Of a DNA stretch of 64,000 nucleotides, positions 1 through 62,085 are shown in pieces. This stretch comes from Candidatus Komeilibacteria bacterium RIFOXYD1_FULL_37_29 (lineage in GTDB: Bacteria > Patescibacteriota > Patescibacteriia > UBA1558 > GWA2-36-10). The stretch spans positions 1,421-65,420 of the forward strand of contig MHKS01000004.1 of NCBI GenBank assembly GCA_001818495.1, in the 5' to 3' direction. Positions within the stretch are counted from its first letter, which is position 1. Every line of letters begins with the position of its first letter. The notes under the pieces are model-generated. The model did no database searches, was not told the origin of the DNA, and worked only from the letters and a program-made list of their open reading frames with translations. A program made the translations under genes and the position numbers.

Positions 1-70
1 AGGCAATGTTCTTATTTGCGAATGTAAGATTTGGGGAGGTCAAGCTCTTTATGGAAAAACAATCGACCAG

Positions 71-307
71 TTGCTCGGATATTTAACTTGGAGGCAAAAT
101 TTTGGAATAATGATAACTTTTGTTAAACAAAAAAACTTTTCAAAAATATTAAATGAGGTGCAAGGTATAGTTACTCAACACGCAAGTTATAAATCGGGTT
201 TTCAACAAATATCTACAACTCATTTTCTCTCCCATCATGCATTAAGCCAGGATGAATCAAAAAGCGTAGAGATTCACCATCTTTTTTATAATTTGTTTTG
301 TGAATAA
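71..307 (+). CDS. hypothetical small protein (78 aa)
   Basis: ORF only; no recognisable motif; immediately upstream of and possibly co-transcribed with 310..615. Confidence 0.2.
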   Translation: MLGYLTWRQNFGIMITFVKQKNFSKILNEVQGIVTQHASYKSGFQQISTTHFLSHHALSQDESKSVEIHHLFYNLFCE

Positions 308-309
308 TT

Positions 310-615
310 ATGCAAACCGAATCAAAACAACAAATTTTAGAACGCCGGAAAGAGATTGAACGGGAACTCGTGGATATGCTCAAAGAGACCAAGAGTGATT
401 TTACTTTGGATCATATCCGAGATGTCATTTTTCACGAAGATGATAACGACGATATGATGAAAGTTGTGGCCATGTTCGATCGTGGCGGTGACGCTTCAGA
501 ATTGAGTAATGTTCTTGAATTGGTAACAGATGCTTGGAATTATTTTCCACATAAAATCCTTGGTGGTATTTCTCCAGCTGAAAAACTGTTGGAATATCAA
601 AATAAAAAGAAGTAA
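310..615 (+). CDS. hypothetical acidic protein (101 aa)
   Basis: Intact ORF abutting the next gene; no recognisable motif; first of three tightly packed small genes. Confidence 0.35.
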   Translation: MQTESKQQILERRKEIERELVDMLKETKSDFTLDHIRDVIFHEDDNDDMMKVVAMFDRGGDASELSNVLELVTDAWNYFPHKILGGISPAEKLLEYQNKKK

Positions 616-617
616 TT

Positions 618-794
618 ATGGCTGATGATAATAATCCAATAGAAAACGAAACAGAAGAAGCTCCGGACGAGGAAGTCGCCGAGCTTATGGAAGCTCACGA
701 TCTTGATAAGGACACGGCCGAGCGTGTGCAAGAGATCATGGAAGATTTAGGTGTGGACGAGGATGATGCCGTCGAAATCGAAGAAAGTCTTTAA
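618..794 (+). CDS. small highly acidic protein (58 aa, MADDNNPIENETEEAPDEE...)
   Basis: ATG 2 nt after stop of previous gene, stop 5 nt before next ATG; below the ORF-track length cutoff; GC-elevated relative to flanks. Confidence 0.3.
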   Translation: MADDNNPIENETEEAPDEEVAELMEAHDLDKDTAERVQEIMEDLGVDEDDAVEIEESL

Positions 795-799
795 TTTTT

Positions 800-1090
800 A
801 TGATTCCATCAAAAAAGAAAATCGACGAGTTAAAGGAATTGGTCAAAAGAGATTTTGGTGTTGAATGGACGGATCAGGAAGCCTCGGATGAAGCATTTAA
901 CTTGCTTAACTTTTACGATGCTCTGGGGAGATTCGCTATGGAGGATATCCAGAAGTATATCGACACCGGTGGAGAACCGAGTTTTGCAGGACCGGACTAT
1001 GATAAGTGGCTAGCAGAGCAGGCGGAAATCGTTAAAAAGATTCAGGCAGATCGGAAGGAAGTCTCTAAATCAAAAAAACGAAAAGGTTAA
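800..1090 (+). CDS. hypothetical protein (96 aa), lysine-rich C-terminus
   Basis: Intact ORF tightly packed with upstream small genes; contains internal copy of TTGCTTAACTTTT motif. Confidence 0.35.
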   Translation: MIPSKKKIDELKELVKRDFGVEWTDQEASDEAFNLLNFYDALGRFAMEDIQKYIDTGGEPSFAGPDYDKWLAEQAEIVKKIQADRKEVSKSKKRKG

Positions 1091-1109
1091 GCAAACATGA
1101 CTCAGCGTA

Positions 1110-1140
1110 ATTTGCTTAACTTTTCCGAAGTTAAGCAAAT
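1110..1140. promoter_or_regulatory. perfect 13-bp-arm palindrome ATTTGCTTAACTT-ttccg-AAGTTAAGCAAAT (operator-like or RNA hairpin)
   Basis: Read directly; a third half-site GTTAAGCAAA at 1086-1095; related copies at 903-915 and 47960-47973. Confidence 0.35.
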
Positions 1141-1392
1141 CGTTCTAGGCTCGCAAATTTCGTCAAACCGGTGGGCTATGTTTGCAAGAGGTGTCAAAGG
1201 TCTATTCGGGGTGCAAAGCTCGCCCCAAGGGCAGACACGGGGCAACAACGTTTTACTTTTTGGCTAGGAGGAGGTCGTAGTTGTAAAACTTGGCAACTTT
1301 CTTGATGTTATTCATTTTTTCGCGTAAAGTAACCATATACTCTTTATCCTCGAGCACTGTTATAAGACCCGACAGTGCCTGACCCCACAAGA

Positions 1393-1420
1393 ACACCTCC
1401 CTCTGGGGAGGTGTTTTTTT
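1393..1420 (+). terminator. Rho-independent terminator (CACCTCCC-tctg-GGGAGGTG + T7)
   Basis: GC stem-loop followed by T-run; followed by extended -10 TGGTATAAT at 1431-1439. Confidence 0.6.
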
Positions 1421-1482: not shown

Positions 1483-2823
1483 ATGAACATAGATCACTTG
1501 AGAAAATATAAATTTTTTATATGGGTTACCAGGCCATATTCCATATCTAGAGAATTTACATTTTTGCAACAATTTAACAAAGAGGGTCTCAAATGTTTTC
1601 TTCTAGTACCAGAAAGTAAATATATAGGTAATTATTATCTTGATGAGCATTCTTATAATATTGTTTTAAAAAAGGTGTATAAACGAATACTTAAATCTTC
1701 TGATTTGCATTTGAATGATTATGACAAAAAAGTTAAAGATCTCTTACAAAAATCAATGGATTTAGGTTCGTCAGCTGGTGTAGTGGCCGATCAGCAGTTA
1801 TTAGAAAAGTACTATCAATATTTAGTAAGCACCAATAATTTTTTTGATTATATATTCTTACCATTTGCTTTAATACAATATACGGAGCCAGAATTAAAAA
1901 GAAAATTTGCTAATAATTTTGAAACTATTATAGCCCCAGAAAAAGCTACTAAGTATCAATTAATGGAGCAAATGCTTTTGACTGAATCATTAGAAAAAGT
2001 ACAAAAAGAGTGGGGGTGGTTAAATGCTTATCATGTAGCTGAACCGTCTTATTCTATAGCGGAGCTAGAAAAAATTAAGACTGCTTTGGATAAAAATATA
2101 GTAGAAAAGTTATTTAGTAGTTTTTCAAAGAACAAAGTAGAATTTGATAAATTTATTAAACAAGTTAAAAATTCAGAAGACAAAGTAAAATGTATTTTGT
2201 TTCATCAATATGCATATTTGAGAAACGATAGAGTTGATATTTGGAAACGAGGGCTTTATTTAACAAGACCATTTTTTAAGTATTTACAATCAAAGTTTAC
2301 CAATATATCTCTTAGGGCAGCTTCAAATTTGACTTACGAAGAAATAGAGAGAATTCTTTTGAATCAAAAAATACCCAAAGAATCAGAAATAAAAAAGAGA
2401 GATAGCGCTTTTATTTATTATTTTACAGATAGTATGCACATAGTAACAGATAAACAAGATATTATTGATATACAAAATATGTTTAAGCACAATGTATCTC
2501 CAGTGCAAGAGTTTACAGGAACCATAGCTAATGAGGGGATAGCTAAAGGGGCAGTAAAGATTGTTAATTCATATCAGGAGTTAGAAAAGGTAAATAGAGG
2601 GGATATTTTAGTTGCCAAAGTTACAGATCCCCGTTATACCCCTTATATGCGTATAGCATCAGCTATTATCACAGACGAGGGAGGAGTTTTATCACACGCT
2701 TCTATTACTAGCAGGGAACTCAATTTGCCCTGTATAGTTGGTACTAAGATAGCTAGCAAAGTATTAAAAGATGGCGATATGGTTGAAGTGGATGCTAATC
2801 ATGGAATAGTTAGAAAATTATAG
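1483..2823 (+). CDS. protein with C-terminal PEP-utilising-enzyme mobile (phosphohistidine swivel) domain; N-terminal ~360 aa unknown
   Basis: C-terminus GGVLSHASITSRELNLPCIVG matches the phosphohistidine swivel domain signature of PEP synthase/PPDK/rifampin phosphotransferase; no ATP-grasp GGK motif seen. Confidence 0.6.
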   Translation: MNIDHLRKYKFFIWVTRPYSISREFTFLQQFNKEGLKCFLLVPESKYIGNYYLDEHSYNIVLKKVYKRILKSSDLHLNDYDKKVKDLLQKSMDLGSSAGVVADQQLLEKYYQYLVSTNNFFDYIFLPFALIQYTEPELKRKFANNFETIIAPEKATKYQLMEQMLLTESLEKVQKEWGWLNAYHVAEPSYSIAELEKIKTALDKNIVEKLFSSFSKNKVEFDKFIKQVKNSEDKVKCILFHQYAYLRNDRVDIWKRGLYLTRPFFKYLQSKFTNISLRAASNLTYEEIERILLNQKIPKESEIKKRDSAFIYYFTDSMHIVTDKQDIIDIQNMFKHNVSPVQEFTGTIANEGIAKGAVKIVNSYQELEKVNRGDILVAKVTDPRYTPYMRIASAIITDEGGVLSHASITSRELNLPCIVGTKIASKVLKDGDMVEVDANHGIVRKL

Positions 2824-2843
2824 TTTAGTAACACGAATTAAAA

Positions 2844-2922
2844 TTTTGACCAATCTAGGGTTCGGAATTCATCCCACAAGTGACCCCATCAGAAAGTAAG
2901 CTAATTTAAGCTTATTTTTTGA
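2844..2922. repeat. intergenic repeat copy A: conserved ~55-nt core (TTTTGACCAATCTAGGGTTCGGAATTCATCCCACAAGTGACCCCATCAGAAAGT) + palindromic hairpin TAAGCT-aattt-AGCTTA + T-run
   Basis: Near-identical to 5317-5393, related to 8243-8323, 9080-9146 and partial 6428-6470. Confidence 0.55.
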
Positions 2923-2980
2923 TAAGGTATAGTTTATTATAGAATTAAAATATAAATTTTGCTATACTTTCTATGTAAAT

Positions 2981-3835
2981 ATGAAATTTATGAATAAAGA
3001 AAATCCCACACAAAATAATAGTAATGAAATATTTCTAACCAGGCACAGTGAGGCTGAATATAGGACCAATAGAGCCATTCTAGAAAATGATCCAGAAGGT
3101 TCGTTAGATCCAGAAGATCAAATTTCGCCCGATTTATCAGAAAAAGGGAAAAAACTTGCTAGGGAAAAAGCAGAAGAATTTTTTTCTAAATTAAATCACC
3201 AAGAAGATTCTTTGTTTTTTGTTTCTAGTAATCAGATAAGAGCTATTGAGACAGCTAATATTTATCGGGAGGTTGCTAAAGAGAAAGGATTTGAGATACT
3301 AAAACCAGAGCATACTAGGAGTGAATATTCAGAAGATATGAGTGGTGGAGATATAAGAGTTGTCCAAAGTTTATCATTGCAGGTTCCCAATATGATTATT
3401 CAACATGTATTTTCTAGGGAGGAAGCTTTAAAAGGAGTTGATTGGGATAAGGTTTCAGAGGAAACAAAAGAAAAATGGGATAGGGCTAGAAAAATTATTG
3501 AAGCCGATGATCATGGTTCATGGGGGGCTAATTATTATTATCATTCTGAAGAAATAAAAAAGATTTTTCCTGAATTAAAATCGGCTAAAGATTTAGATGA
3601 AGCACAGTTTAAGAACGTATTAAGGCTTGTTAAATTTGCCGATAAAAAGATAAAAGAGTCGGGATCAGAGAAAAAGATTAAAATTCTTGGTTTTGGACAT
3701 GAAAACTATTTAGGTGTAGCATTGAACGAGTATTTTCAAGATCATGAAATCAAGAATTGTGAGACAGTCAGTTTTCAAGTTGATGAAGATAATATAAAGG
3801 CATCATTTAGGGGGCAGGAAAAAGATATAAGTTAA
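2981..3835 (+). CDS. histidine phosphatase superfamily (phosphoglycerate mutase-like) protein, divergent
   Basis: N-terminal LTRHSEAEY (RHG-type catalytic motif variant) and SSNQIRAIETA second motif; sits between the two swivel-domain paralogues. Confidence 0.45.
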   Translation: MKFMNKENPTQNNSNEIFLTRHSEAEYRTNRAILENDPEGSLDPEDQISPDLSEKGKKLAREKAEEFFSKLNHQEDSLFFVSSNQIRAIETANIYREVAKEKGFEILKPEHTRSEYSEDMSGGDIRVVQSLSLQVPNMIIQHVFSREEALKGVDWDKVSEETKEKWDRARKIIEADDHGSWGANYYYHSEEIKKIFPELKSAKDLDEAQFKNVLRLVKFADKKIKESGSEKKIKILGFGHENYLGVALNEYFQDHEIKNCETVSFQVDEDNIKASFRGQEKDIS

Positions 3836-3856
3836 TTATATTAATATTTTAGTCTT

Positions 3857-5296
3857 ATGAAAAATAAAAATTGGAATTTTGTATATAGTGAAGGACATTC
3901 ATTGCTTCTTAATGAAGTATTTTTTAATGCCTTTACTAATTTTCCCCAAATTCCTGGTATTTTTAAAACCATCCTTTATATAAATAGACACGGGGATCAG
4001 ACTTGTTATGTACCCCCATCTGAAATGACTCGCGTGCGTCAACAAGGTAAAATCTTTTTTGACGTTAAGTATCGGGCACAATTTAAGAAAAATATAGCCA
4101 ACCAAGCAGCAAAATTTAATTTATTTTGGCAAAAGTACAAAAAAACAAAGATTTTATTACTTAATAATGATCAGCTACTTTCTCTTTTTAAAGAATATAT
4201 AGATAATTTAACATTAATGTGCGCTTATTATCAGGTTTCAGGCGGAAGGTCTTACCCATTATTGGAAGAATATGTTAAACAAGAAATGTATTCTTATTTT
4301 AATAAAAATGACGTACCTAAATATTATTCTTTAGTTTTAACATCTACAAAAATTGATTTATTGGAGCGCGAGGAAATAGCTTTACTTAAATTATCAGCAA
4401 AAAAAGCAATCAATTCAAAACAACTTATTGATCATGCTATTAATTATGCCTTTCATTATTTATGTGGATATAATGATGAGAAAATACTGAGTTCACTTAA
4501 GCAGCGTATTTTAGATTTAAAGAAAAAATACAAGTCCGATTCTCTTTATATCAATAAATTTAGTAAAGAGAGAAGATCACTTATGAATCAACGTAATAGA
4601 ATAATGAAAAAATTAATCAAAAATAAACAATTGGTTAACACTATCCAATTTTTAAGAGAGCAAGGGAGATTACGTTTCGAATATAAAGAGTGGTTTTTTG
4701 GAGCGGAGTATAAATTTTTATATATATTTAAAGAGATTGCCAAGCGTTTAGGAATTTCATTGGAAGATTATTTTCTTAGTTATCGTATTGATGATACTAT
4801 TAAATTTTTACAAAATGATATTAAAGTTTCTCAGACTACAATATACGAAAGATCAAAGATATTTATATTTTATCAAAACAAAGGGAAGAAATATTTTTAT
4901 AGTGGTAAATCTGCTGAAGAAAAAGAGGAGGTACTAATGGGTACAGCCATTAAGCAAGAGAGCGTAGTGAGGGGTGTATCGGCTAATCCAGGGAAAGTTA
5001 GTGGAAAAGTCAGAATCATTTTACCTAAAAGTTTTGAGCATATTCAAAGAGCTTTAACATATTTTCAGCAAGGTGAGGTATTAATTACTACAATGACACA
5101 GCCCAGCCTTATTTCTATTATGAAGAGAGCATGCGCGATGGTAACAAATCAGGGTGGTATAACTTCCCACGCAGCCATCATATCAAGAGAGTTTGATATC
5201 CCTTGTATTGTTGGCACGCATATTGCGACAGAGGTATTTAAAGATGGCGATATGGTTGAAGTGGATGCTGATCACGGAATAGTTAGAAAATTATAG
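3857..5296 (+). CDS. paralogue of 1483..2823: unknown N-domain + C-terminal PEP-utilising mobile phosphohistidine domain
   Basis: C-terminus GGITSHAAIISREFDIPCIVG...KDGDMVEVDADHGIVRKL; last ~60 nt and 3' flank almost identical at nucleotide level to 2761-2900. Confidence 0.6.
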   Translation: MKNKNWNFVYSEGHSLLLNEVFFNAFTNFPQIPGIFKTILYINRHGDQTCYVPPSEMTRVRQQGKIFFDVKYRAQFKKNIANQAAKFNLFWQKYKKTKILLLNNDQLLSLFKEYIDNLTLMCAYYQVSGGRSYPLLEEYVKQEMYSYFNKNDVPKYYSLVLTSTKIDLLEREEIALLKLSAKKAINSKQLIDHAINYAFHYLCGYNDEKILSSLKQRILDLKKKYKSDSLYINKFSKERRSLMNQRNRIMKKLIKNKQLVNTIQFLREQGRLRFEYKEWFFGAEYKFLYIFKEIAKRLGISLEDYFLSYRIDDTIKFLQNDIKVSQTTIYERSKIFIFYQNKGKKYFYSGKSAEEKEEVLMGTAIKQESVVRGVSANPGKVSGKVRIILPKSFEHIQRALTYFQQGEVLITTMTQPSLISIMKRACAMVTNQGGITSHAAIISREFDIPCIVGTHIATEVFKDGDMVEVDADHGIVRKL

Positions 5297-5316
5297 TTTA
5301 GTAACACGAATTAAAA

Positions 5317-5393
5317 TTTTGACCAATCTAGGGTTCGGAATTCATCCCACAAGTGACCCCATCAGAAAGTTAGCTTAAAAGGCTAATTTTTTG
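5317..5393. repeat. intergenic repeat copy B (core identical to copy A, different terminal hairpin TTAGC-ttaaaag-GCTAA + T-run)
   Basis: Direct sequence comparison with 2844-2922. Confidence 0.55.
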
Positions 5394-5444
5394 ATACACT
5401 CTAATGGGGTATCGAACTAAATTATAATTTGATATAATAATTTT

Positions 5445-6311
5445 ATGAAAATACCCACAAAAAAACTTAAAAATGGATTTGAGTTACCAGATTTAGGGCT
5501 TGGTACTTGGAAAATTGGTGGCGGTCGGGAGGTTGATACGTCACGCGACAGCGGGTCTATAGAAGCGGTCAAGAAAGCTATAGCTATGGGCTATATCCAT
5601 ATTGACACGGCTGAAGTCTATGGAGCCGGTCATTGTGAAGAGCTAATTGGTCAAGCTATTAAAGATTTCCCTAGAGAAAATTTAATTATTACCAGTAAAG
5701 TAGCCAGAGTTAATTTGGCCTATGACGATGTACTTAGAGCCGCTGAAAAAAGCTTGCAAAAACTGGACATAGATTATATAGACCTTTATTATATTCACGC
5801 GCCAAATCCTGAAATTTCTCTGAAAGAAACAATAAGGGCAATGGACAGGTTAGTGAGTGATAAATTGGTAAAAAATATAGCGGTTAGTAATTTTACAGTT
5901 GATTTATTAAAAGAAGCACAAGCTTATTCAGATAATAAAATTGTAGCTAATCAAATAGAATACAGCTTACTTACTAGAAACAAAGGTAGCCACGGATTAC
6001 CATATGCTGATAACGTAGATATGGAGTCTAAGACTTTACCATATTGTCAGGAGAATGATATTTTGGTCGTGGCAGAAAGGCCTTTAGAAAGAGGTATATT
6101 ATTAGAAAAAAATGAGTTGATGGGTAAGATGGTTAAAAAGTATAATAAGTCGTATGCACAAATTGCTATTAACTGGTTAATATCACAAAAAAATGTAGTT
6201 ACTATTCCCAAATCAGATAATATAGAGCATTTAGAAGAAAATTTGGGAGGAGTAGGATGGAAAATGGAAGAGGAAGATATTGAGCTTTTAAGGCAAAAAT
6301 ATAACAATTAG
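5445..6311 (+). CDS. aldo/keto reductase family oxidoreductase
   Basis: LGLGTW, IDTAEVYG, and overall AKR (TIM-barrel NADP-dependent oxidoreductase) motif order. Confidence 0.85.
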   Translation: MKIPTKKLKNGFELPDLGLGTWKIGGGREVDTSRDSGSIEAVKKAIAMGYIHIDTAEVYGAGHCEELIGQAIKDFPRENLIITSKVARVNLAYDDVLRAAEKSLQKLDIDYIDLYYIHAPNPEISLKETIRAMDRLVSDKLVKNIAVSNFTVDLLKEAQAYSDNKIVANQIEYSLLTRNKGSHGLPYADNVDMESKTLPYCQENDILVVAERPLERGILLEKNELMGKMVKKYNKSYAQIAINWLISQKNVVTIPKSDNIEHLEENLGGVGWKMEEEDIELLRQKYNN

Positions 6312-6427
6312 TTTTAACCTAAATTATCAAATACTACTGAGTGGCATTTCATAAGGTTGGAATATCACTTTTGGTATGTCAAAATCGTCTGAAATAAACA
6401 TCAAGCTGGTTTTTATACGCTCTACTG

Positions 6428-6470
6428 TGGCACCCTATCAGAAAGTTAGCTAACGATAGCTAATTTTTTG
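6428..6470. repeat. partial copy D of the intergenic repeat (GTGGCACCCTATCAGAAAGT + hairpin TTAGCTA-acga-TAGCTAA + T6); bidirectional terminator between convergent genes
   Basis: Sequence similarity to 3' half of copies A-C. Confidence 0.45.
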
Positions 6471-6472
6471 TT

Positions 6473-7078
6473 TTAATTAAATTGTATGAGTTTATGCTTA
6501 TTTTTATCAGTATTTTCTATAATAGCAATAGCTCCATTTTTTAATTTATATTTTTTATAGTTGTCTTTAGTAATAGGTAAATTTAGTATTTTTAAAATTA
6601 ACATAGCAATAGCCCCCACATGGCTGACTATCAATATCTGATTATTTTTATGTTTGCCTATTAAAGATAAATAAAAATTATATATTCTTTTTTGTAAATC
6701 AAGATAGGACTCTCCTTCAGGAAAACGCTGTGTTCCAAAAATTTCACCGCTAGATTTCTCTAGTGCTTCTCTGTCTTTTCTTAAGATACCGCCATGTATG
6801 CCGTGATTTCTTTCTTTGAGTTCCGGACAAGGAATAATTTTTAATTTAGAGTGATTTTTGATTACTTCCTGAGCAGTTTCCAGACATCTTTTCATATCGC
6901 TACTATATAGATAATCTATTTTTTGGTTTTTCAAAACATTAGCTATATTTATAGCCTGCTTTATTCCAACATCATTAAGATTACTATCAATGGTCTGACC
7001 CATAGATATACCTACAGTGTTTTCATATGTTTGCCCGTGGCGTATAAATATTGCTTTCATATTATATATATTTGACAT
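6473..7078 (-). CDS. histidine phosphatase family protein (phosphoglycerate mutase-like)
   Basis: IFIRHGQTYEN (RHG motif), SSDMKRCLETAQ second motif, C-terminal His region. Confidence 0.75.
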   Translation of the reverse strand: MSNIYNMKAIFIRHGQTYENTVGISMGQTIDSNLNDVGIKQAINIANVLKNQKIDYLYSSDMKRCLETAQEVIKNHSKLKIIPCPELKERNHGIHGGILRKDREALEKSSGEIFGTQRFPEGESYLDLQKRIYNFYLSLIGKHKNNQILIVSHVGAIAMLILKILNLPITKDNYKKYKLKNGAIAIIENTDKNKHKLIQFN

Positions 7079-7148
7079 ATAAAACAGTATTGTTATAATA
7101 TCACATTGAATCGTTACTTAACAATCATAATAAATCGGAGGAACACAA

Positions 7149-8099
7149 ATGTCCAAGATTAACAAAAAGCTGCTGGACATACACACGGAGCTTGACAGAG
7201 CAATTCTAGATTTAGCTTTTTTTGGAAAGTTGAATCACAATTTTCATCCTGCTGCGGCAGGGGATGTTAGTCAGGTTTTTTCCAGTGAAGCAAGTACGGA
7301 ATTAGCATCTCGTTTTCACAGTCAAGCCAGCAAATGGTTTCCAATTTCCAAAATAGAGGAGTTGGCATATATTAGGGCTGACGGACGCACAGATTATAGA
7401 AGCGAGGGAGTTAGCAACACTTCTTTCTATGCTTATTCCAAGTGTCTTGCCAATAGAGTGATGCTCATTACCAGAACAGGATCACAAATCCCGGCTATTT
7501 CACAAACCATTTTAGAGGGTTTAGAAGGCACATTACTTGTTCTTCTGGAAATCAATGATGCTGGTGATGCTATCAGAATTTTGTTTGGCAACAAACAGTT
7601 TGGTTCTATTCCCTCCATAGAAACACATGTTCATATTTTAGGAGGAGCCATAGGAATTAAGGAGGGAATAGAAACGCCAGCTTTGGTTCACGCTCATCCC
7701 TTAGAACTTATTCTGTTGGCATCGCACCCCAGAATCAAGGGTAACCAAGATCTCTTCAACGCTATTTTGTATACCCAAGTAGAGGGAATTAACAGAATAG
7801 AGCCAGGCTTAGTAGCTCTTGTGCTTTACAAGCCATCTGGATCAGCTATTTTAGTAGAATCTAGCATATCTTCTTTGGAGAGGCATAAGATAGTTATCTG
7901 GCTAAACCATGGAGTTGTAGTTAGAGCTTCAAGTATCGAGCGTGGTTATGCAGTCATGGCCTATGCAGATAGAGATGCTAAGGTGGCTCTCCAGGCTCTA
8001 GCTGGGAAGTTTGTGGGTTTGCCGTTTGATGTCGTGGAAAGTTTTTTACGACAGCACAATTTGTTAGATTCTTATAACCATCTGGGATTGAATAAATAA
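7149..8099 (+). CDS. class II aldolase/adducin-domain protein (RhaD/FucA-like) with N-terminal extension
   Basis: VHAHP (HxH metal ligands) and later WLNHGVVVRASSIERGYAVMAYADRDAKVA resembling class II aldolase His/Ala-rich helix; good SD (GGAGGAACACAAATG); GC-elevated (~43%). Confidence 0.45.
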   Translation: MSKINKKLLDIHTELDRAILDLAFFGKLNHNFHPAAAGDVSQVFSSEASTELASRFHSQASKWFPISKIEELAYIRADGRTDYRSEGVSNTSFYAYSKCLANRVMLITRTGSQIPAISQTILEGLEGTLLVLLEINDAGDAIRILFGNKQFGSIPSIETHVHILGGAIGIKEGIETPALVHAHPLELILLASHPRIKGNQDLFNAILYTQVEGINRIEPGLVALVLYKPSGSAILVESSISSLERHKIVIWLNHGVVVRASSIERGYAVMAYADRDAKVALQALAGKFVGLPFDVVESFLRQHNLLDSYNHLGLNK

Positions 8100-8109
8100 G
8101 GAGGACACA

Positions 8110-8205
8110 ATGATTATCCCAGAGGAAGGTCGCATAATTTTATGCGACCTTTTTCTTAATCAGATAAACCACCAGCGATTAGCCGGAGGTATGTTCATTT
8201 TATAA
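8110..8205 (+). CDS. possible 31-aa small ORF (MIIPEEGRIILCDLFLNQINHQRLAGGMFIL)
   Basis: Consensus SD AAGGAGG 5 nt upstream of ATG, directly after aldolase-like gene; no homology inferable. Confidence 0.2.
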   Translation: MIIPEEGRIILCDLFLNQINHQRLAGGMFIL

Positions 8206-8242
8206 AAATTAATTTAATTGTATTTCAGGAATACTATATTGC

Positions 8243-8323
8243 AATTTTGACCAATCTAGGGTTTTGAATTTATCCCATAAGTGACCCCATCAAAAAGTTA
8301 CCTAACAATAGCTAATTTTTTGT
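8243..8323. repeat. intergenic repeat copy C (core with 7 substitutions + hairpin + T-run)
   Basis: Alignment to copies A/B: TTTTGACCAATCTAGGGTTTTGAATTTATCCCATAAGTGACCCCATCAAAAAGT. Confidence 0.5.
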
Positions 8324-8373
8324 TTGTTAGAATAAGTGATATAATTGGTATATTAAAATTAGAAATTAAAATT

Positions 8374-9060
8374 ATGAAACTTATATTATTTGATATTGAT
8401 GGGACACTTATTGGAGGAAAACACGGACATCCCAAATCATATAGTGATGCTATAAAAGCTATTCACGGTATTGATATTGAAATTGACTGGAAAGGTGTTC
8501 AGGGTATGACTGACCAGCAGATATTAACAAAATATTTAGTGGTTAATAATATTCCAGAAAATATCATTAGTAAGAATATGGTCAGTTATATGAAGGAGAT
8601 GGAGAAATCTTTTAATGCTAGTATTGGTAACAGTACAATACATCCTTTAGATGGCGTAGAAAAATTATTAATAGAATTGAAATCTAAAGGAGCATTATTG
8701 GGATTGGTAACAGGAAATATAGTTTCCATTGCTCGGGCTAAGTTAGAAAAATTGAATTTATGGGGATACTTTAATGTGGGTGGTTTTGGTAGCGATGATA
8801 TTAGCAGAGCCAGACTAGTTAAATTAGCAATTCAAAGAGCAGAAAAAAAATTTAATTTTGTTTTTGATAAGAATGTAATTCTATTTGGAGATGCACCGCA
8901 GGATATGAAAGCAGGTATTGATGCAGATATATATACAATTGGGGTTACAACGGGAGTGTATTCAAAAGAAGATTTAAATAAGGTGGGTGCAAAGGTAGTT
9001 GTAGATTCACTTAAAAACACTAAGGAAATCGTAAAACTTATAGATAGTATTTTATTGTAA
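8374..9060 (+). CDS. HAD-superfamily hydrolase (phosphatase/beta-phosphoglucomutase-like)
   Basis: MKLILFDIDGTLI (DxDGT motif I), later GDAPQD motif IV; ORF-track start 8281 would read through the repeat, so internal ATG 8374 chosen. Confidence 0.75.
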   Translation: MKLILFDIDGTLIGGKHGHPKSYSDAIKAIHGIDIEIDWKGVQGMTDQQILTKYLVVNNIPENIISKNMVSYMKEMEKSFNASIGNSTIHPLDGVEKLLIELKSKGALLGLVTGNIVSIARAKLEKLNLWGYFNVGGFGSDDISRARLVKLAIQRAEKKFNFVFDKNVILFGDAPQDMKAGIDADIYTIGVTTGVYSKEDLNKVGAKVVVDSLKNTKEIVKLIDSILL

Positions 9061-9079
9061 ATATTTTATAGAACATTTT

Positions 9080-9146
9080 TAGGGTTCAGAATTTGTCCTC
9101 CAAATTATGCCATCTAAAAACTCGGGTCTAAAACCGAGTTTTTGGT
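9080..9146. repeat. degenerate copy E of intergenic repeat (TAGGGTTCAGAATTTGTCCTCCAAATTATGCCATCTAAAAA) fused to bidirectional terminator AAAACTCGG-gtctaaaa-CCGAGTTTTT
   Basis: Pattern match to core of copies A-C; hairpin + T-run between convergent genes. Confidence 0.4.
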
Positions 9147-9183
9147 TACAAAAAATTGAAAGAAATTTAGCCACTAAACTGAT

Positions 9184-11028
9184 TTATTCAATATCCCACG
9201 GAATTGATAGCTGACCGACAAAATCATAATCACCAAATAGTACATCAGCTACTCCAGAGCCTTCACTACCTGGTAGCCAGGCAGCTACGATGGCATCCCA
9301 ATCATTGCTTACAGCACTAATATCCAAGGGTCGACCGGATATAATAATAACTACCAATTTTTTACTGGCCGTTTTGACTCGTGTAATTCTGGCTAGGTCT
9401 TCGGTACTCAATCTAGGATGCTGATTGTCGCCCCAACCCTCGGCATAAGGTTTTTCGCCAACTACGGCAATACCTATATCAGCCAAGTCGTCGCTTACGG
9501 TAAATTTTCCTTCAAGATTATAATCAATGCTTGTGTTAGCCGAAACAGCCTGTTTGATTCCCGACAAAATAGTAGTACCAGGTACCCAGTTGCCGTCGAT
9601 ACCTTGCCATTCTACAGTCCAAGCGCCCATCTGCTGGCCAAGATTATCGGCCGCCGAACCAGCCACTACAATTCTCTTAGCATTGTTTGCCAGGGGCAAA
9701 GTATTATTTTTGTTTTTTAGTTCTACCAATGATTTGCGGACAGCTTCTCGAGCTAGCTTACGGTGAGCTGGAGCGCCGAGTATAGACAGATCAATTTTCG
9801 TCTGGTTTTGATCAAAAAGTCCCAAACTAAATTTGGCTCGCAAAATTCTACTGACGGCATCATCTAACCGCGCTGGGCTGATATCATGGTTTCGAAGGGC
9901 TTTTTGAAGGTCGGCGGTAAATTGCTGGTAATCAAACGGCAACATCACTAGATCAACTCCGGCATTGATGGCTGTGACAATGGATTGATACTTATTGTTA
10001 GATATTTCGTAAACGCCATACCAATCAGATACTACAAAACCTTTGAAGTCCAATTCGTTTTTTAAAACATCGGTCAATAAATAACGCTGGGCGGCCATAT
10101 TTTTTCCTTGCCAGTTATTTAAGCCGGCCATGACGCTCAGAGCGCCCTCATCAATTGCCGCTTGAAACGGCGGTAGGTGAGTGAGTCGCAACTGCGCTTC
10201 GGTTATTTGACTGTCGCCTTGATCAATTTTAAAGTTTTCATTAATTGAAGTTCCCCAAGTCATAGCACCGGTACCGACATAGTGTTTAGCTGTACCTAAA
10301 ACCATCGGCCAGTCACTGTTTGGATTTTGTAAACCGTTTAAATAAGCGCGTCCTAGTTTGGTCACTGTTTGAGTGTTGCTTCCAAAAGTTTCATAGACCC
10401 TGCCCCAGCGTATGTCTTGAGGCACATCTAGATTCGGACCAAAAGTCCAGTGAATGCCTGTGGCTAGCAGCTCTTCTCTGGTAGCCTGGGCCACTCTTTT
10501 GACCAACTCGGTATCGTTGGTAGCTCCTAGACCAATGGCCTGTGGGAAAACCACAGATCCCGGAACATTGGCATGACCATGGTTGGCGTCGACGCCGTAA
10601 AGCAAGGGAATTTTTAGACAGGTTTTTAAAGCTACGGCATTAAAATTTTCTACCATTTTAAGCCAAGCCTCCGGCGTATTTGGATTGGGTTTTGCTCCGG
10701 CTCCGCTCAGTAATGCACCCAAGTGGTAATCAGCAATGTCTTGTGGTTTTAGGAGACTGTTTTTTTCCACCAAGGCCAATTGGCCGATTTTTTCCGCCTC
10801 GGTCATACGACCAAGTAAATCCTTTATTCTTTCTTCAGTTGGAATACTGGGATCTAAATACTTAGCGCTAGCAGCAAGACAATTTCGTGTTTCAATGGCT
10901 GGGCTGGTGGTTCTAGCGGGATTTTTTGTAATTAACTGGTCAAATATAATAAAAGCCAGAGCGATTAATCCTATAGCCAAGATCATTGGGGTATAAAAAT
11001 TTTTTTTCTTTTTTTTCGCTTTGCTCAT
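9184..11028 (-). CDS. glycoside hydrolase family 3 (beta-glucosidase/BglX-like), N-terminal membrane anchor
   Basis: KHYVGTG (GH3 N-domain), GFVVSDW catalytic nucleophile motif, C-domain VVIIISGRPLDI; N-terminal polybasic + TM segment. Confidence 0.85.
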   Translation of the reverse strand: MSKAKKKKKNFYTPMILAIGLIALAFIIFDQLITKNPARTTSPAIETRNCLAASAKYLDPSIPTEERIKDLLGRMTEAEKIGQLALVEKNSLLKPQDIADYHLGALLSGAGAKPNPNTPEAWLKMVENFNAVALKTCLKIPLLYGVDANHGHANVPGSVVFPQAIGLGATNDTELVKRVAQATREELLATGIHWTFGPNLDVPQDIRWGRVYETFGSNTQTVTKLGRAYLNGLQNPNSDWPMVLGTAKHYVGTGAMTWGTSINENFKIDQGDSQITEAQLRLTHLPPFQAAIDEGALSVMAGLNNWQGKNMAAQRYLLTDVLKNELDFKGFVVSDWYGVYEISNNKYQSIVTAINAGVDLVMLPFDYQQFTADLQKALRNHDISPARLDDAVSRILRAKFSLGLFDQNQTKIDLSILGAPAHRKLAREAVRKSLVELKNKNNTLPLANNAKRIVVAGSAADNLGQQMGAWTVEWQGIDGNWVPGTTILSGIKQAVSANTSIDYNLEGKFTVSDDLADIGIAVVGEKPYAEGWGDNQHPRLSTEDLARITRVKTASKKLVVIIISGRPLDISAVSNDWDAIVAAWLPGSEGSGVADVLFGDYDFVGQLSIPWDIE

Positions 11029-11097
11029 GAGCTAATTATACCACTTATTTTTTCAAACAAAAAATAAGTGGTATAATTAAGATATTAAAATTCAAAT

Positions 11098-12015
11098 ATG
11101 AAAAAGATCATTCTGGGAATCGGAGCAGTGTTAGTAGTTTATCTAGCTTTTATTTTGATTAAATCATTTTTAACAGAAGCAGAAATACCGCAGACTAACA
11201 TTCAAAAACAAACAGAGGCCAAGGTTTTTTTGCAAGAATTTAAAGAAGAAAAAATAAAAGAATTTCAAAAATTAGGAGTTAATTTGGAAGATTGGCAAGC
11301 GGCTTATTTTTATTTTATCAGTGCACCAGAAAATGGATATTATGCAGAGGTCAGCGGAAGACAGGAACCAACTATAATATATGGTCCAAATGATAGAATT
11401 TTGCCTCGTAAATTTTCCTGGCAGGAGAGTATAGGTGGCATGAGTAAAATGGCTGGTTTACCAACAATGTACAATAATGTTTTATATTTTGTGAATAGTG
11501 GATGTACTGAAACAGCCAATAGTTTTAATTGTTTATCAGAACAATATTTAGAATATTCCAACGACTATGGCAAATCTTGGCAACAATCTTCTGTCCCTAT
11601 CCCTCAGCGTATTAAAGAAACTTATTTTGTTATTCATAACGAAACTTTATATCATATATATTCAAGCTGGTGTGACAATATTAGTATATTTCCTGCTCTC
11701 GGATATGATTGTGGAGAAGTATATATCAGAAAACTGGAAGAGGGCGATAGATGGAGTGAACCTAAAAAATTATTTTCAACCGCTCGTTCTTTATTGGGAG
11801 TTTATAGTAGTGAAGATTCATTGATGTTAATATGGCAAGATACCAGGTTTAATTGGGCTAATTGGTGTGGGTTTATACCGAGTATAGGTTGTGTTGACGG
11901 AGAGCCTACGAGCGGGCCATATGTATTATATCTTGGTCAATACAATGTACAAGCCGATACATTTGATGAATATATTATTCAGAATCAATATGATAAAGAT
12001 TTAAGGTTGTATTAA
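11098..12015 (+). CDS. hypothetical membrane-anchored Cys-containing protein (305 aa)
   Basis: N-terminal TM helix, several spaced Cys pairs; no family recognised. Confidence 0.4.
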   Translation: MKKIILGIGAVLVVYLAFILIKSFLTEAEIPQTNIQKQTEAKVFLQEFKEEKIKEFQKLGVNLEDWQAAYFYFISAPENGYYAEVSGRQEPTIIYGPNDRILPRKFSWQESIGGMSKMAGLPTMYNNVLYFVNSGCTETANSFNCLSEQYLEYSNDYGKSWQQSSVPIPQRIKETYFVIHNETLYHIYSSWCDNISIFPALGYDCGEVYIRKLEEGDRWSEPKKLFSTARSLLGVYSSEDSLMLIWQDTRFNWANWCGFIPSIGCVDGEPTSGPYVLYLGQYNVQADTFDEYIIQNQYDKDLRLY

Positions 12016-13344: not shown

Positions 13345-13551
13345 ATATAAAAATTACGACCCGATATTCCATCTGGTCGTATTTATATAAAACGAGAGGT
13401 TCCGAGCCCTGCTCCTTAAAATCGGAGCTTAATAATTGGCTATTATATACTATAATAGTATATTTGTCAATAGTAGAGGCATCTTCCCTCACTATCTGCC
13501 TGTCGGTCACATTCCGCCAAAGGTGGCTAGTTTTTTATTTGAAAGAATAGG

Positions 13552-13560
13552 TGGTATAAT
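13552..13560 (+). promoter_or_regulatory. extended -10 TGGTATAAT upstream of NYN gene
   Basis: Consensus match 29 nt upstream of ATG 13589. Confidence 0.35.
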
Positions 13561-13588
13561 AAAAATATAAAAATTAGGAATTAAAATT

Positions 13589-14119
13589 ATGGAAGAGCAA
13601 AATCAGATAAATCAAAAAATAAGACAACGGATTATCAATCAATCGGTCGCTATACTTTGCGATGGTAATAATATTGAAAGAAGTATTCACGCGATTTCTA
13701 ATAACAAAAATGCCATGATTGATTTTGATGCCGTTATTCCCAAGCTATTAAACGGCCGAGGTTTGAATAGATTACTATATTTTCGTGAAGGCACCTCTAT
13801 TTCAGCCAAGTTTGCTGAAAGACTGCATGAAAATTATTATGGTTCAGTGATTCCCTGCCATAAATCAGCTGACATTCCTTTGACAATCAAAGCCACTCAG
13901 CTGGCTTCCAAGGTTGACACTATTATAATAATGTCTGGTGATTCTGATTATGTAGATTTGGTGTCATATATGAAAGGTGAGGGTGTCAGAGTAGAGATAG
14001 CAGCTCTTAAAAAAACTACCTCCAAAGCGTTGATTGATGAAGCTGATTATTTTCATGAGATTGTTAAAGAAGATTGGTTTGTCTACAAAGCTCCTAGTAA
14101 ATATGTTAAGAGAGTGTAG
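13589..14119 (+). CDS. NYN-domain (LabA/DUF88-like) putative RNA nuclease
   Basis: AILCDGNN near N-terminus and IIIMSGDSDYVDLV matching NYN/LabA aspartate motifs. Confidence 0.55.
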   Translation: MEEQNQINQKIRQRIINQSVAILCDGNNIERSIHAISNNKNAMIDFDAVIPKLLNGRGLNRLLYFREGTSISAKFAERLHENYYGSVIPCHKSADIPLTIKATQLASKVDTIIIMSGDSDYVDLVSYMKGEGVRVEIAALKKTTSKALIDEADYFHEIVKEDWFVYKAPSKYVKRV

Positions 14120-16926: not shown

Positions 16927-18297
16927 TTATTTATTTTTTCCTTTATTGTTAGTATTTTTTGGGGAAATAATCTTTTTTATATTTTTATTTATTTTTTTGA
17001 TTATTTCTGATTTACTTTGAGAGTACTTTTTGTCATCGTCATCATCACTATCATCATCATGTCTTTCACTAGTCCAATATTTTGGAGCTTTTCTAGCCTT
17101 GGTAGTAACCGTGATAGTGTTGGAAGCAGCAGACATATCGCCGTCTTTGTCATAGGCCTTAACTGTAAAGGTATAGGTAGTACCGGGATTAAGTCTGATA
17201 TTGTTAAAGTGTGGTCTTTTTACTTTAGCAATTTGTACGCCGTCTTTAAAGACTGCATAACCTGCGATATTGGTTTTATCAGCTGGAGCTTTCCATTTTA
17301 AATTTACATGTTTATAAGAAACCACATGAGCTTTAAGTTGACTAGGGGCAGTGGGGACAGTAGTGTCAGGGGGTGCTGTATAGGTGGTAGCGGTAGCTGT
17401 ATTGGAATTAGCAGAAGTATTGCCAGCTCCATCATAAGCTTTGATGGTATAAGAGTAAGTAGTTGAAGCGGTTAGACCAGTATTGTGGTAAGTATTAGTA
17501 GTGACATTGGCAATTTTTGTGTTGTTTCTAAAAATAGAATAACCAGTAACACCGACATTATCAGTGGAAGTGGTCCAACTCAAATTGATTTGAGAAGCAG
17601 AAACTGGGTTGGCTGTTAAGTTCGTTGGTGCACTAGGTGCTGTATTGTCAGTGGAAGTAGCTAAAGTAGTAGCGGAAGCCGTGTTAGAAAAATTTGATCT
17701 ATTGCCAGCTCCGTCATAAGCTTTGACAGTATAAGAGTAAGTAGTTGAAGCTGTTAGTCCCAAATCATTAAAAGTTGAGCCAATGATATTGGCAATTTCT
17801 GTATTGTCTCTAAAGATAGCATAACCAGTCACAGCTACATTGTCAGTCGAGGTATTCCAAGCCAAGCTTATTTGAGCAAATGAAACAGCATTGGCTGTCA
17901 GATTAGTTGGTGCGCTAGGAGCTGTAGTATCACTAGTGGCGCTTAGAGTGGTAGCCGAAATAGAAGTCGAATGAGCAGAAGCATTTCCAGCTCCGTCATA
18001 AGCTTTGATAGTATAAGAGTAAGTAGTCGAAGCTGTTAGGCCGATATTATAGAAAACCGTGTTGGTGGTGTTGGCGATTTGTAGGCCGTTTCTAAAAATA
18101 GAATAGCCAGTGACACCAACATTGTCAGTGGAAGTTACCCAACTCAAATTTATTTGTGAAGCCGAGACTGGGCTAGCACTTAGATTGCTTGGTACAGAAG
18201 GAGAGACGATATCGTCTACAGCTTGGGCTGAATTTATCATTACCAAAGAAAATACTCCGATGAGTAATGATCCCAAGATTAATACTACTTTTTTCAT
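16927..18297 (-). CDS. secreted protein with four tandem fibronectin type III-like repeats and acidic/lysine-rich tail
   Basis: Signal peptide; ~90-aa repeats PSAPTNLTA..SWxTSTDNVGVTGYxIFRN...GLTASTTYSYTxKAYDGAGN x4; DDDSDDDDD then K-rich C-terminus. Confidence 0.7.
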   Translation of the reverse strand: MKKVVLILGSLLIGVFSLVMINSAQAVDDIVSPSVPSNLSASPVSASQINLSWVTSTDNVGVTGYSIFRNGLQIANTTNTVFYNIGLTASTTYSYTIKAYDGAGNASAHSTSISATTLSATSDTTAPSAPTNLTANAVSFAQISLAWNTSTDNVAVTGYAIFRDNTEIANIIGSTFNDLGLTASTTYSYTVKAYDGAGNRSNFSNTASATTLATSTDNTAPSAPTNLTANPVSASQINLSWTTSTDNVGVTGYSIFRNNTKIANVTTNTYHNTGLTASTTYSYTIKAYDGAGNTSANSNTATATTYTAPPDTTVPTAPSQLKAHVVSYKHVNLKWKAPADKTNIAGYAVFKDGVQIAKVKRPHFNNIRLNPGTTYTFTVKAYDKDGDMSAASNTITVTTKARKAPKYWTSERHDDDSDDDDDKKYSQSKSEIIKKINKNIKKIISPKNTNNKGKNK

Positions 18298-61939: not shown

Positions 61940-62015
61940 CGTCCTGTAGCTCAGCTGGTTAGAGCATCACTCTTATAAAGTGGGGGTCCCGGGTTCAAAT
62001 CCCGGCAGGACGACC
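61940..62015 (+). tRNA. tRNA-Ile (anticodon UAU), CCA encoded
   Basis: Cloverleaf folded by hand: acceptor CGTCCTG/CAGGACG, D-arm GCTCAGCTGGTTAGAGC, anticodon stem TCACT/AGTGG with loop CTTATAA, T-arm CCGGGTTCAAATCCCGG, 3' ACCA. Confidence 0.85.
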
Positions 62016-62085
62016 ATTTAATTAAATTGACACACTTATTGGTTTTTGGTAAAATTGTATAGTTAAACTAAACAAATACAAATAT

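What the first reader, a model, noticed from the sequence alone, without database searches (positions are those of the whole stretch)
2824..9146. Family of five intergenic repeats: conserved ~50-nt core fused to variable terminator hairpins
The core TTTTGACCAATCTAGGGTTCGGAATTCATCCCACAAGTGACCCCATCAGAAAGT recurs five times. Copies at 2844 and 5317 are identical. The copy at 8243 has 7 substitutions. The 3' half appears at 6428. A degenerate copy sits at 9080.

Each copy is followed by a different short palindrome (TAAGCT/AGCTTA, TTAGC/GCTAA, TTAGCTA/TAGCTAA, AAACTCGG/CCGAGTTT) and a T-run, so each sits at a gene 3' end as a terminator. The core contains a small hairpin, GGGTT-cGGAATTCat-CCC, with a faintly tRNA T-arm-like GGTTCGGAATTCATCC.

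No ORF is associated, so this is not an IS element. It looks like a REP/MITE-like or small-RNA-encoding element confined to this accessory region.
Basis: seen in the sequence. Interest (0 to 1): 0.6.

Follow-up and report, generated by a model that had tools for sequence, protein, structure and literature searches.

The report
tRNA-His-derived repeat punctuating a gene array
The five intergenic repeats are real copies of a roughly 95-base module that descends from the last two-thirds of the tRNA-His gene plus that gene's own terminator, and it marks the boundaries of accessory genes in a variable region of an uncultured groundwater (Patescibacteria) bacterium and three relatives.

Summary
There are five co-oriented copies at 2824-2921, 5297-5394, about 6423-6472, 8225-8322 and 9075-9146, and none elsewhere in the 64 kb. 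Each ends in an intrinsic terminator whose stem covaries across 10 copies from four genomes.

From "ACCCC" to "CCA", the module is colinear with tRNA-His, running from the 3' strand of the anticodon stem to the CCA end. The only length difference is an enlarged T-loop. It keeps the tRNA gene's trailer (TCAAAAA) and its terminator family.

In three related genomes, arrays of the module start at the genuine tRNA-Arg/tRNA-His pair. They run through accessory genes that differ completely between genomes. No integrase, terminal inverted repeats, covarying core structure or Rfam match was found.

Copies recombine with each other. Copies 1 and 2 share a 131-nt near-identical tract that includes 57 coding bases of two otherwise very divergent genes. 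One strain variant lacks exactly the 2473 bp between them.

Best reading: a tRNA-His-derived boundary and terminator module of a gene array built downstream of tRNA-His. The recombination mechanism is inferred, not shown. This is a new variant of a known kind, of moderate interest.

The parts
2824..2923 (+). Module copy 1 (core 2844-2897; terminator hairpin about 2888-2923), directly after the stop codon of the 446-aa PEP-utilizers gene
5297..5395 (+). Module copy 2 (core 5317-5370, identical to copy 1; terminator 5361-5395), directly after the stop codon of the 479-aa PEP-utilizers gene
2767..2897 (+). Near-identical tract shared with 5240-5370 (2 mismatches in 131 nt). It spans 57 nt of coding sequence plus the core, and is read as a gene-conversion or recombination tract
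2898..5370 (+). The 2473-bp unit (terminator of copy 1, 284-aa gene, 479-aa gene, core of copy 2) that is absent from strain variant L007. The junction lies inside the shared tract
5395..5444 (+). Flank and promoter downstream of copy 2 (GATACACTCTAATGGGGTATCGAAC...TGATATAAT). It is homologous to the flank downstream of the real tRNA-His gene in the sister species
6423..6472 (+). Copy 4: 3' part only (GGCACCCTATCAGAAAG plus terminator 6439-6470), between convergent genes. The left side resembles the tRNA-His acceptor 3' strand
8123..8166 (+). Separate terminator-like hairpin and T-run of the aldolase-like gene, upstream of copy 3. Copy 3 is therefore not needed to terminate that gene
8225..8322 (+). 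Module copy 3, full length with the conserved 5' segment AGGAATACTATATTGCAATTT. Core 8245-8298 (5 substitutions); terminator 8291-8322
9075..9146 (+). Copy 5, degenerate (29/42 identical in the core). It has its own unrelated terminator stem at 9114-9145 and lies between the HAD hydrolase gene and the convergent GH3 gene

Best explanation
The repeat is an intergenic module of about 95 nt derived from the tRNA-His locus. It contains the 3' two-thirds of the tRNA, from the anticodon-stem 3' strand through the variable loop, T arm, acceptor 3' strand and discriminator C to CCA. It also contains the tRNA gene's trailer and its intrinsic terminator.

Copies sit in direct orientation at the boundaries of accessory genes, in the variable array that lies downstream of the tRNA-Arg/tRNA-His pair in this Patescibacteria clade.

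Each copy does two things:
- Its hairpin and U-tract terminate the upstream gene.
- Its conserved core gives neighbouring units a shared tract at which DNA recombines, so that genes are gained, lost and converted between copies.

The module arose by partial duplication of the tRNA-His locus. This was either an att-type duplication when DNA inserted at the tRNA's 3' end, or a tandem duplication with one breakpoint inside the tRNA.

Shown here: the homology, the array architecture, terminator covariation, and recombination between copies 1 and 2. Inferred: that recombination at the module built the array, and which enzyme does it.
For: Homology to tRNA-His:
- The module is colinear with tRNA-His with the same spacing of 5+4+5 nt, then the T-loop, then 5+7+1+3 nt. 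It has the same TCAAAAA trailer and the same TTAGCTAA-type hairpin.
- A profile built from module copies only hits the tRNA-His loci of two relatives (E 1.7e-7 and 7.6e-7). It does not hit tRNA-Arg or tRNA-Ile.
- Alignments restricted to the tRNA body favour tRNA-His over other tRNAs.

Array architecture:
- In three related genomes the arrays begin at tRNA-Arg/tRNA-His and share the tRNA's orientation.
- Genes between copies differ completely among genomes, apart from distant PEP-utilizers paralogs.
- The flank after copy 2 is homologous to the flank after the real tRNA-His in the sister species, at 82% over about 100 nt.

Function and recombination:
- The terminator stem has 8 pairs with compensatory changes.
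- Copies 1 and 2 share 131 nt, although the two proteins are only 48% identical over their last 107 residues.
- Variant L007 lacks exactly the unit between them.
- The region is a strain-variable hotspot. A defence island lies upstream in most contigs, and a PrimPol-helicase lies there in L007.
Against: - No integrase or other recombinase lies in or beside any of the four arrays, within the 8-20 kb held for each.
- Copies are not identical to the resident tRNA's 3' end. They share derived features (a 12-nt T-loop and a conserved 5' segment) across genomes.
- A copy in genome T is about 87-88% identical to copies in genomes S and U. By eye from the sequences printed, the tRNA-His genes of T and U look less alike than that. 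This points to selection on the core or to horizontal spread, which simple relics would not show.
- The window's own tRNA-His was not found within 9.7 kb upstream.
- L007 is a metagenome scaffold, and a collapsed repeat cannot be ruled out.
- Four of seven full copies abut PEP-utilizers stop codons. Unit duplication explains that as well.
Confidence: 0.5

Rival explanations
1. The module is a functional tRNA-like RNA element. It would be either a 3'-UTR element or a small RNA exapted from tRNA-His. The retained T-arm remnant, acceptor strand, CCA and tRNA trailer could direct 3'-end processing or protect the transcript. Its C-rich single-stranded stretches could also pair with targets.
For: - The core's primary sequence is conserved at 80-88% between genomes.
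- It always lies on the transcribed strand, just upstream of a working terminator.
- Full copies share the 5' segment AGGAATAYTATATTGYAATTT, which contains a TATATT box.
Against: - No covarying pairs occur outside the terminator. Only an invariant GGG/CCC pairing is seen.
- There is no partner for the acceptor strand, so no tRNA-like fold. ARAGORN and Rfam do not recognise it.
- No sigma-70-like promoter is predicted upstream of copy 3 on the + strand, and copy 3 lies behind another terminator.
- This reading does not explain the clustering next to tRNA-His.
Confidence: 0.2
2. The module is a passive by-product of tandem duplication of a unit made of a PEP-utilizers gene plus the adjacent partial tRNA-His and terminator. 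Gene conversion keeps the copies alike. The core has no function of its own, and other genes later replaced some paralogs.
For: - Copies 1, 2, S_b and S_c directly abut PEP-utilizers stop codons.
- The gene 3' end plus module aligns as a unit between the window and the sister species.
- This protein family forms tandem arrays of 7-9 paralogs in other genomes.
- The tract shared by copies 1 and 2 shows that conversion happens.
Against: - The paralogs are far more diverged than the modules.
- Subtypes of the module are shared across species rather than homogenised within a genome.
- Copies 3, 4 and 5, T_a and U_a have no PEP-utilizers remnant upstream.
- Arrays of the same gene family in L011 and L012 carry no module.
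Confidence: 0.2
3. The module is a REP/MITE-like, non-autonomous mobile element that inserts at gene 3' ends.
For: It is short, repeated, intergenic and ORF-free.
Against: - No terminal inverted repeats or target-site duplications bracket any copy.
- All copies lie in one orientation in one 6.3-kb stretch.
- No transposase was found nearby.
Confidence: 0.03

Closest known systems
Partial tRNA-gene copies (attL/attR direct repeats) flanking genomic islands integrated at tRNA 3' ends, including tandem accretion of islands at one tRNA
   Same: - It is a direct repeat of the 3' part of a tRNA gene.
- It lies downstream of the intact tRNA, in the tRNA's orientation.
- It bounds variable, strain-specific gene content at an integration hotspot.
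- That partial tRNA genes arise from integration of genetic elements is documented (PMC9897764, abstract). tRNA genes as island hotspots are reviewed in PMC2704930 (identified from the search listing only; not opened).
   Different: - No integrase was found in any array.
- The units are only 0.35-2.5 kb.
- The repeat is not identical to the resident tRNA. It is a diverged pseudo-tRNA with an enlarged T-loop and a conserved extra 5' segment, shared across four genomes.
- It carries the tRNA's terminator and serves as the terminator of the upstream gene.
Integron attC sites and gene-cassette arrays
   Same: It is a co-oriented array of unrelated genes, each followed by a copy of a conserved site of about 60-100 nt. 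One cassette-sized unit is present or absent between strains.
   Different: - There is no intI nearby.
- The module does not fold as one long imperfect hairpin with paired ends.
- The conserved part is the 5' core and the variable part is the 3' hairpin, the reverse of attC (attC layout recalled from my own knowledge).
- The downstream genes have their own promoter-like TGnTATAAT boxes.
Bidirectional intrinsic (Rho-independent) terminators
   Same: Each copy ends in an A-tract, a stem-loop and a U-tract. The stem covaries.
   Different: A terminator does not need the roughly 60 nt of conserved, unstructured sequence upstream.

Membership tests
Functional tRNA gene | Cloverleaf recognised by tRNA finders or the Rfam tRNA model | tested here: not met
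   ARAGORN finds only tRNA-Ile in the window. There is no tRNA hit at E<=10 on copies 1 or 3. No 5' acceptor strand or D arm is present.
tRNA-fragment att repeats of integrated elements | Homology to the 3' part of a tRNA gene | tested here: met
   The module is colinear with tRNA-His from the anticodon-stem 3' strand to CCA, plus trailer and terminator. A module-only profile hits tRNA-His loci at E about 1e-7.
tRNA-fragment att repeats of integrated elements | Direct repeats downstream of the intact tRNA, in the same orientation | tested here: inconclusive
   Met in genomes S, T and U. In the window genome no tRNA-His lies within 9.7 kb upstream, and the contigs break there.
tRNA-fragment att repeats of integrated elements | Integrase gene inside the bounded segment | tested here: not met
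   Pfam, PHROGs and PADLOC scans of genes in and beside the four arrays find no recombinase.
tRNA-fragment att repeats of integrated elements | Repeat identical or near-identical to the resident tRNA 3' end | tested here: not met
   Only about 20-21 of 30 colinear positions match, counted by eye on the and 49 sequences. The T-loop is enlarged from 7 to 12 nt. Genome T's copy does not resemble T's own tRNA-His T arm.
Integron attC | Adjacent intI, and a single imperfect hairpin with paired terminal sites | tested here: not met
   No integrase was found. The folds show a weak 5' hairpin plus a separate terminator, not one long hairpin.
MITE / REP element | Terminal inverted repeats, target-site duplication, dispersed copies | tested here: not met
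   No bracketing inverted repeats were found. All copies lie in one 6.3-kb stretch in one orientation.
Intrinsic terminator | Stem-loop followed by a U-tract, with structure conserved through compensatory change | tested here: met
   Folds of all five copies. 8 of 14 stem pairs show compensatory changes in 10 sequences.
Structured small RNA or known Rfam family | Rfam match, or covarying structure in the conserved core | tested here: not met
   No family reaches its gathering score, and nothing credible appears at E<=10. The core has only an invariant GGG/CCC pairing. A possible GGAATA/TATTCC stem is kept in only some copies.

The most novel reading that the evidence does not exclude
The module is the recombination site of an integrase-in-trans (or host-recombinase-driven) cassette system in Patescibacteria. 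Small units of promoter, gene(s) and module would be captured one after another at the 3' end of tRNA-His. This would be functionally analogous to integron attC or plasmid pdif modules, but built from a pseudo-tRNA. It would explain the conservation of the core's sequence across genomes, the trans-species subtypes, the arrays headed by tRNA-His and the strain-level loss of one unit.
Probability: 0.15. Interest if true: 0.75.

Novelty: new variant of a known kind. Interest (0 to 1): 0.45.

Why it matters
Patescibacteria have tiny genomes, and little is known about how they acquire accessory genes. Here a pseudo-tRNA-His module, carrying the tRNA's own terminator, marks every boundary of a fast-changing gene array next to tRNA-His in four genomes, with no integrase in sight.

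If the module is the site at which genes are swapped, it would be a simple, previously undescribed route of gene-cassette exchange in this radiation. If it is an RNA element, it would be an example of a tRNA remnant reused at mRNA 3' ends. Either way it gives a searchable marker for variable regions in these genomes.

If it is only a duplication relic, it is ordinary.

Tried and rejected
- **Strict DNA pattern.** A pattern built from copies 1, 3 and 5 found nothing in genome contigs or metagenome contigs. The window's own genome is not in those collections. A relaxed 20-position pattern, designed after a chance profile hit in the sister species, found the related copies. About half of its hits were unrelated coding sequence in Bacteroidetes and other taxa.
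- **Viral, phage and plasmid collections.** The viral-contig scan gave only weak, short profile matches to part of the core, which I treated as chance and did not follow up. Phage and plasmid BLAST found nothing.
- **Gene remnants upstream of copies 3, 4 and 5.** There is no similarity beyond shuffled controls. An apparent resemblance between the HAD C-terminus and the PEP-utilizers C-terminus was dismissed as chance.
- **Link to the retron reverse transcriptase upstream.** I considered SINE-like retro-copies and diversity-generating retroelement repeats. Both were rejected: the arrays in S, T and U have no reverse transcriptase (within the loci held), the differences between copies are not adenine-specific, and the repeats are non-coding.
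- **dif/Xer-like site in the 5' segment.** Compared by eye with the consensus from memory. No convincing match, and not formally tested.
- **Locating the window genome's tRNA-His.** The homolog search returned only a 99% representative on short contigs.
- **More distant relatives.** L011, L012, L041-L043 and L054 carry no copy.
- **Non-coding stretch at 1120-1420.** No Rfam match, and a folding z-score of -0.9.
Full report
**1. The observation**

The 54-nt core occurs exactly at 2844-2897 and 5317-5370, where none is expected by chance. A profile built from the copies finds five matches on the + strand: 5297-5398, 2824-2926, 8225-8327, 9043-9150 and 6423-6475. Nothing else matches in the 64 kb window or in the sequence upstream of it.

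The third core starts at 8245 and differs at 5 positions, not 7. Copy 4 is 32/39 identical over its 3' part. Copy 5 is 29/42 identical over the core.

Every copy ends in an A-tract, a stem-loop and a T-run.

**2. Setting**

The window comes from a groundwater Patescibacteria (candidate phyla radiation) population. Many near-identical contigs exist.

| Position | Feature | Source |
|---|---|---|
| 1483-2823 | 446-aa PEP-utilizers protein | |
| 2824-2921 | copy 1 | |
| 2981-3835 | 284-aa weak histidine-phosphatase-like protein | |
| 3857-5296 | 479-aa PEP-utilizers protein | |
| 5297-5394 | copy 2 | |
| 5445-6311 | aldo-keto reductase | |
| about 6423-6472 | copy 4 | |
| 6473-7078, minus strand | histidine phosphatase | |
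| 7149-8099 | class II aldolase-like protein, with its own hairpin and T-run at about 8123-8166 | |
| 8225-8322 | copy 3 | |
| 8374-9060 | HAD hydrolase | |
| 9075-9146 | copy 5 | |
| 9184-11028, minus strand | GH3 glycosidase | |

Upstream of the window lies a defence island. It carries AbiEii, a type I-like restriction system, a type VI retron and PDC-S54.

The genes after copies 1, 2 and 3 each have a TGnTATAAT-type box between the module's T-run and the start codon. The module is therefore not a 5' leader.

**3. Copies 1 and 2 recombine**

The two PEP-utilizers proteins align only over their last 107 residues, at 48% identity. Yet 2767-2897 and 5240-5370 differ at only 2 of 131 positions, and 57 of those positions are coding. 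This is a conversion or recombination tract.

Contig L007 is otherwise identical to the window over the shared genes. It joins the 446-aa gene directly to copy 2's terminator and the reductase gene. It lacks exactly the 2473-bp unit, and the junction lies inside the shared tract. L007 also has a PrimPol-helicase upstream in place of the defence island. It is a metagenome scaffold, so a collapsed repeat is not excluded.

**4. Relatives**

A strict pattern found nothing. The module profile then gave a weak hit just after a stop codon in the sister species, whose GH3 is 86% identical to the window's. A relaxed 20-position pattern recovered real copies in three further genomes:

- **S**: JBAZSG01, the same organism as Ga0172379_10001012.
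- **T**: JBAYIR01.
- **U**: CAZWIT01. It is labelled Gammaproteobacteria, but has 31% G+C and a methyltransferase 80% identical to S's (78.6% nt identity to the window's).

More distant relatives carry no copy. Phage and plasmid collections have none.

**5. What the module is**

Two of the profile hits are genuine tRNA-His genes. Set side by side, the module is colinear with tRNA-His from the 3' strand of the anticodon stem onward:

| Segment | tRNA-His | Module |
|---|---|---|
| Anticodon-stem 3' strand | ACCGC | ACCCC |
| Variable loop | TAAT | AATC |
| T-stem 5' strand | GAGGG | TAGGG |
| T-loop | TTCAATT | TTCnGAATTCAT |
| T-stem 3' strand | CCCTC | CCCAC |
| Acceptor 3' strand | TGGGCAC | AAGGGAC |
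| Discriminator | C | C |
| 3' end | CCA | CCA |

The spacing is identical except for the T-loop, which grows from 7 to 12 nt. After CCA come the same trailer, TCAAAAA, and the same family of terminator hairpins, TTAGCTAA...TTAGCTAA.

A profile built from module copies only hits the tRNA-His loci of S and U at E = 1.7e-7 and 7.6e-7. It does not hit tRNA-Arg or tRNA-Ile. Alignments limited to the tRNA body are modest but specific to tRNA-His, with p between 0.003 and 0.05 against mostly above 0.05 for other tRNAs.

Full copies add a conserved 5' segment, AGGAATAYTATATTGYAATTT.

**6. Array architecture**

In S, T and U the array starts at an adjacent tRNA-Arg(TCT)/tRNA-His(GTG) pair and runs in the tRNA's direction.

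- **S**: tRNA-His, a 482-aa PEP-utilizers gene, module, a 72-aa gene, module, a 362-aa PEP-utilizers gene, module, two small genes, then a degenerate module.
- **T and U**: the genes between modules are unrelated to those of S and the window.

The 50 nt after copy 2, promoter included, are homologous to the flank after the real tRNA-His of S. The similarity is 82% over about 100 nt, counting the 3' end of the module. Copy 4 keeps GGCACCC, the tRNA's own acceptor sequence, rather than the module's GTGACC.

The window genome's tRNA-His was not found within 9.7 kb upstream. Most assemblies break in or just downstream of the defence island.

**7. Structure and constraint**

In 10 copies, the terminator stem has 8 pairs with compensatory changes. 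The core has only an invariant GGG/CCC pairing. A possible GGAATA/TATTCC stem, in the position of the anticodon stem, is complete in U, nearly complete in T, and lost in the window's copies.

There is no Rfam match. No terminal inverted repeats bracket any copy. No sigma-70-like promoter is predicted upstream of copy 3 on the + strand.

Core identity between genomes is 73-88%. Subtypes of the module are shared across species: TTTTGACC in the window and in S_a, TTTACCCC in S_b and T_a. Coding DNA of the window and S is about 85% identical, so conservation between those two is not remarkable on its own. The 87-88% identity between T_a and the S and U copies does stand out. By eye, on the sequences, it appears to exceed the similarity of the tRNA-His genes of T and U.

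**8. Interpretation**

The origin from the tRNA-His locus is well supported, at roughly 0.85. The role of the hairpin as a terminator is shown. That copies recombine is shown for copies 1 and 2.

How the array was built is inferred. The two candidates are att-type duplication, when DNA inserted at the tRNA's 3' end, and tandem duplication with a breakpoint inside the tRNA. I favour recombination at the module as the way units are gained and lost, at 0.5. The reasons are that arrays are anchored at tRNA-His, that gene content turns over completely between relatives, and that the region is a strain-variable hotspot.

Against this reading: no recombinase was found in any array, and the core is a diverged, conserved pseudo-tRNA rather than a copy of the resident tRNA.

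The rivals are:

- A tRNA-like RNA element (0.2). Sequence conservation supports it. The lack of structure, the lack of a promoter, and the failure to explain clustering weaken it.
- A passive by-product of duplicating units of PEP-utilizers gene plus module (0.2). Four full copies abut such genes, which supports it. Copies without any gene remnant and the trans-species subtypes weaken it.
- MITE/REP and integron attC readings. Both fail their defining features.

**9. Comparison and novelty**

The closest known thing is the partial tRNA copy that flanks genomic islands at tRNA genes (PMC9897764). This case differs in four ways:

- The units are small.
- No integrase is present.
- The repeat is a derived pseudo-tRNA shared across genomes.
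- The repeat carries the tRNA's terminator and is reused as a gene terminator.

It is a new variant of a known kind. Interest is moderate (0.45). It would rise if read-level data showed cassette excision, or if a dedicated recombinase were found.

Noticed in passing
window 1-1267, and L036 1-10000 (upstream of the window): The window starts in the tail of a defence island: AbiEii, a type I-like restriction helicase and methylase, a type VI retron (HTH_VI and RT_VI), a Cas4-like PDDEXK nuclease and PDC-S54. Window 71-307 encodes the C-terminus of PDC-S54. Four small ORFs of unknown function follow.
   Followed up: partly
L007 1-1736: This strain variant has a PrimPol-helicase (577 aa, cut at the contig start) in place of the defence island, directly upstream of the 446-aa gene. 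Several other assemblies break at window positions about 1245-1290.
   Followed up: partly
window 1483-2823 and 3857-5296; L011, L012: Proteins of about 450 aa, with only a C-terminal PEP-utilizers swivel domain recognisable, form tandem arrays of 7-9 very divergent paralogs. This is seen in another Patescibacteria genome and in an archaeal (DPANN-like) contig. Their function is unknown.
   Followed up: partly
window 8311-8379, 11043-11111, 13526-13594; L015 at several sites: A stereotyped block of about 70 nt, comprising promoter and 5' leader (AGAATAAGTGnTATAAT...TTAAAATTAGRAATTAAAATTATG), recurs in front of unrelated genes. It is about 80% conserved between the window and the sister species.
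   Followed up: partly
window 1120-1420: A non-coding stretch of about 300 nt, richer in G+C than its surroundings, ends in a strong terminator (1389-1418). Its first 110 nt differ at about 20 positions between strains, while the rest is identical. There is no Rfam match and the folding z-score is unremarkable.
   Followed up: partly
L035 about 500-520 (copy S_c): One module copy in the sister species carries a 19-nt G+C-rich palindrome (CTGCCTGCCGGCAGGCAGG) inserted just after the T-loop-like part.
   Followed up: no
window 61940-62016: The only tRNA in the window is tRNA-Ile with anticodon TAT. This is uncommon in bacteria, which usually read AUA with a modified CAT anticodon.
   Followed up: no
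window 17384-18201: Three tandem 282-nt repeats (75-77% identical) lie inside the 456-aa fibronectin type III protein gene on the minus strand.
   Followed up: no
L022 / L024 (CAZWIT010000003.1): This genome bin is labelled 'uncultured Gammaproteobacteria'. It has 31% G+C, shares an 80%-identical methyltransferase with the sister species S (78.6% nt identity to the window), and shows synteny with the window. It is probably a mislabelled Patescibacteria genome.
   Followed up: partly
L004 / L048 2582-3929: In one assembly the 446-aa gene is split into 148-aa and 307-aa ORFs. This is either a frameshift or an assembly error.
   Followed up: no
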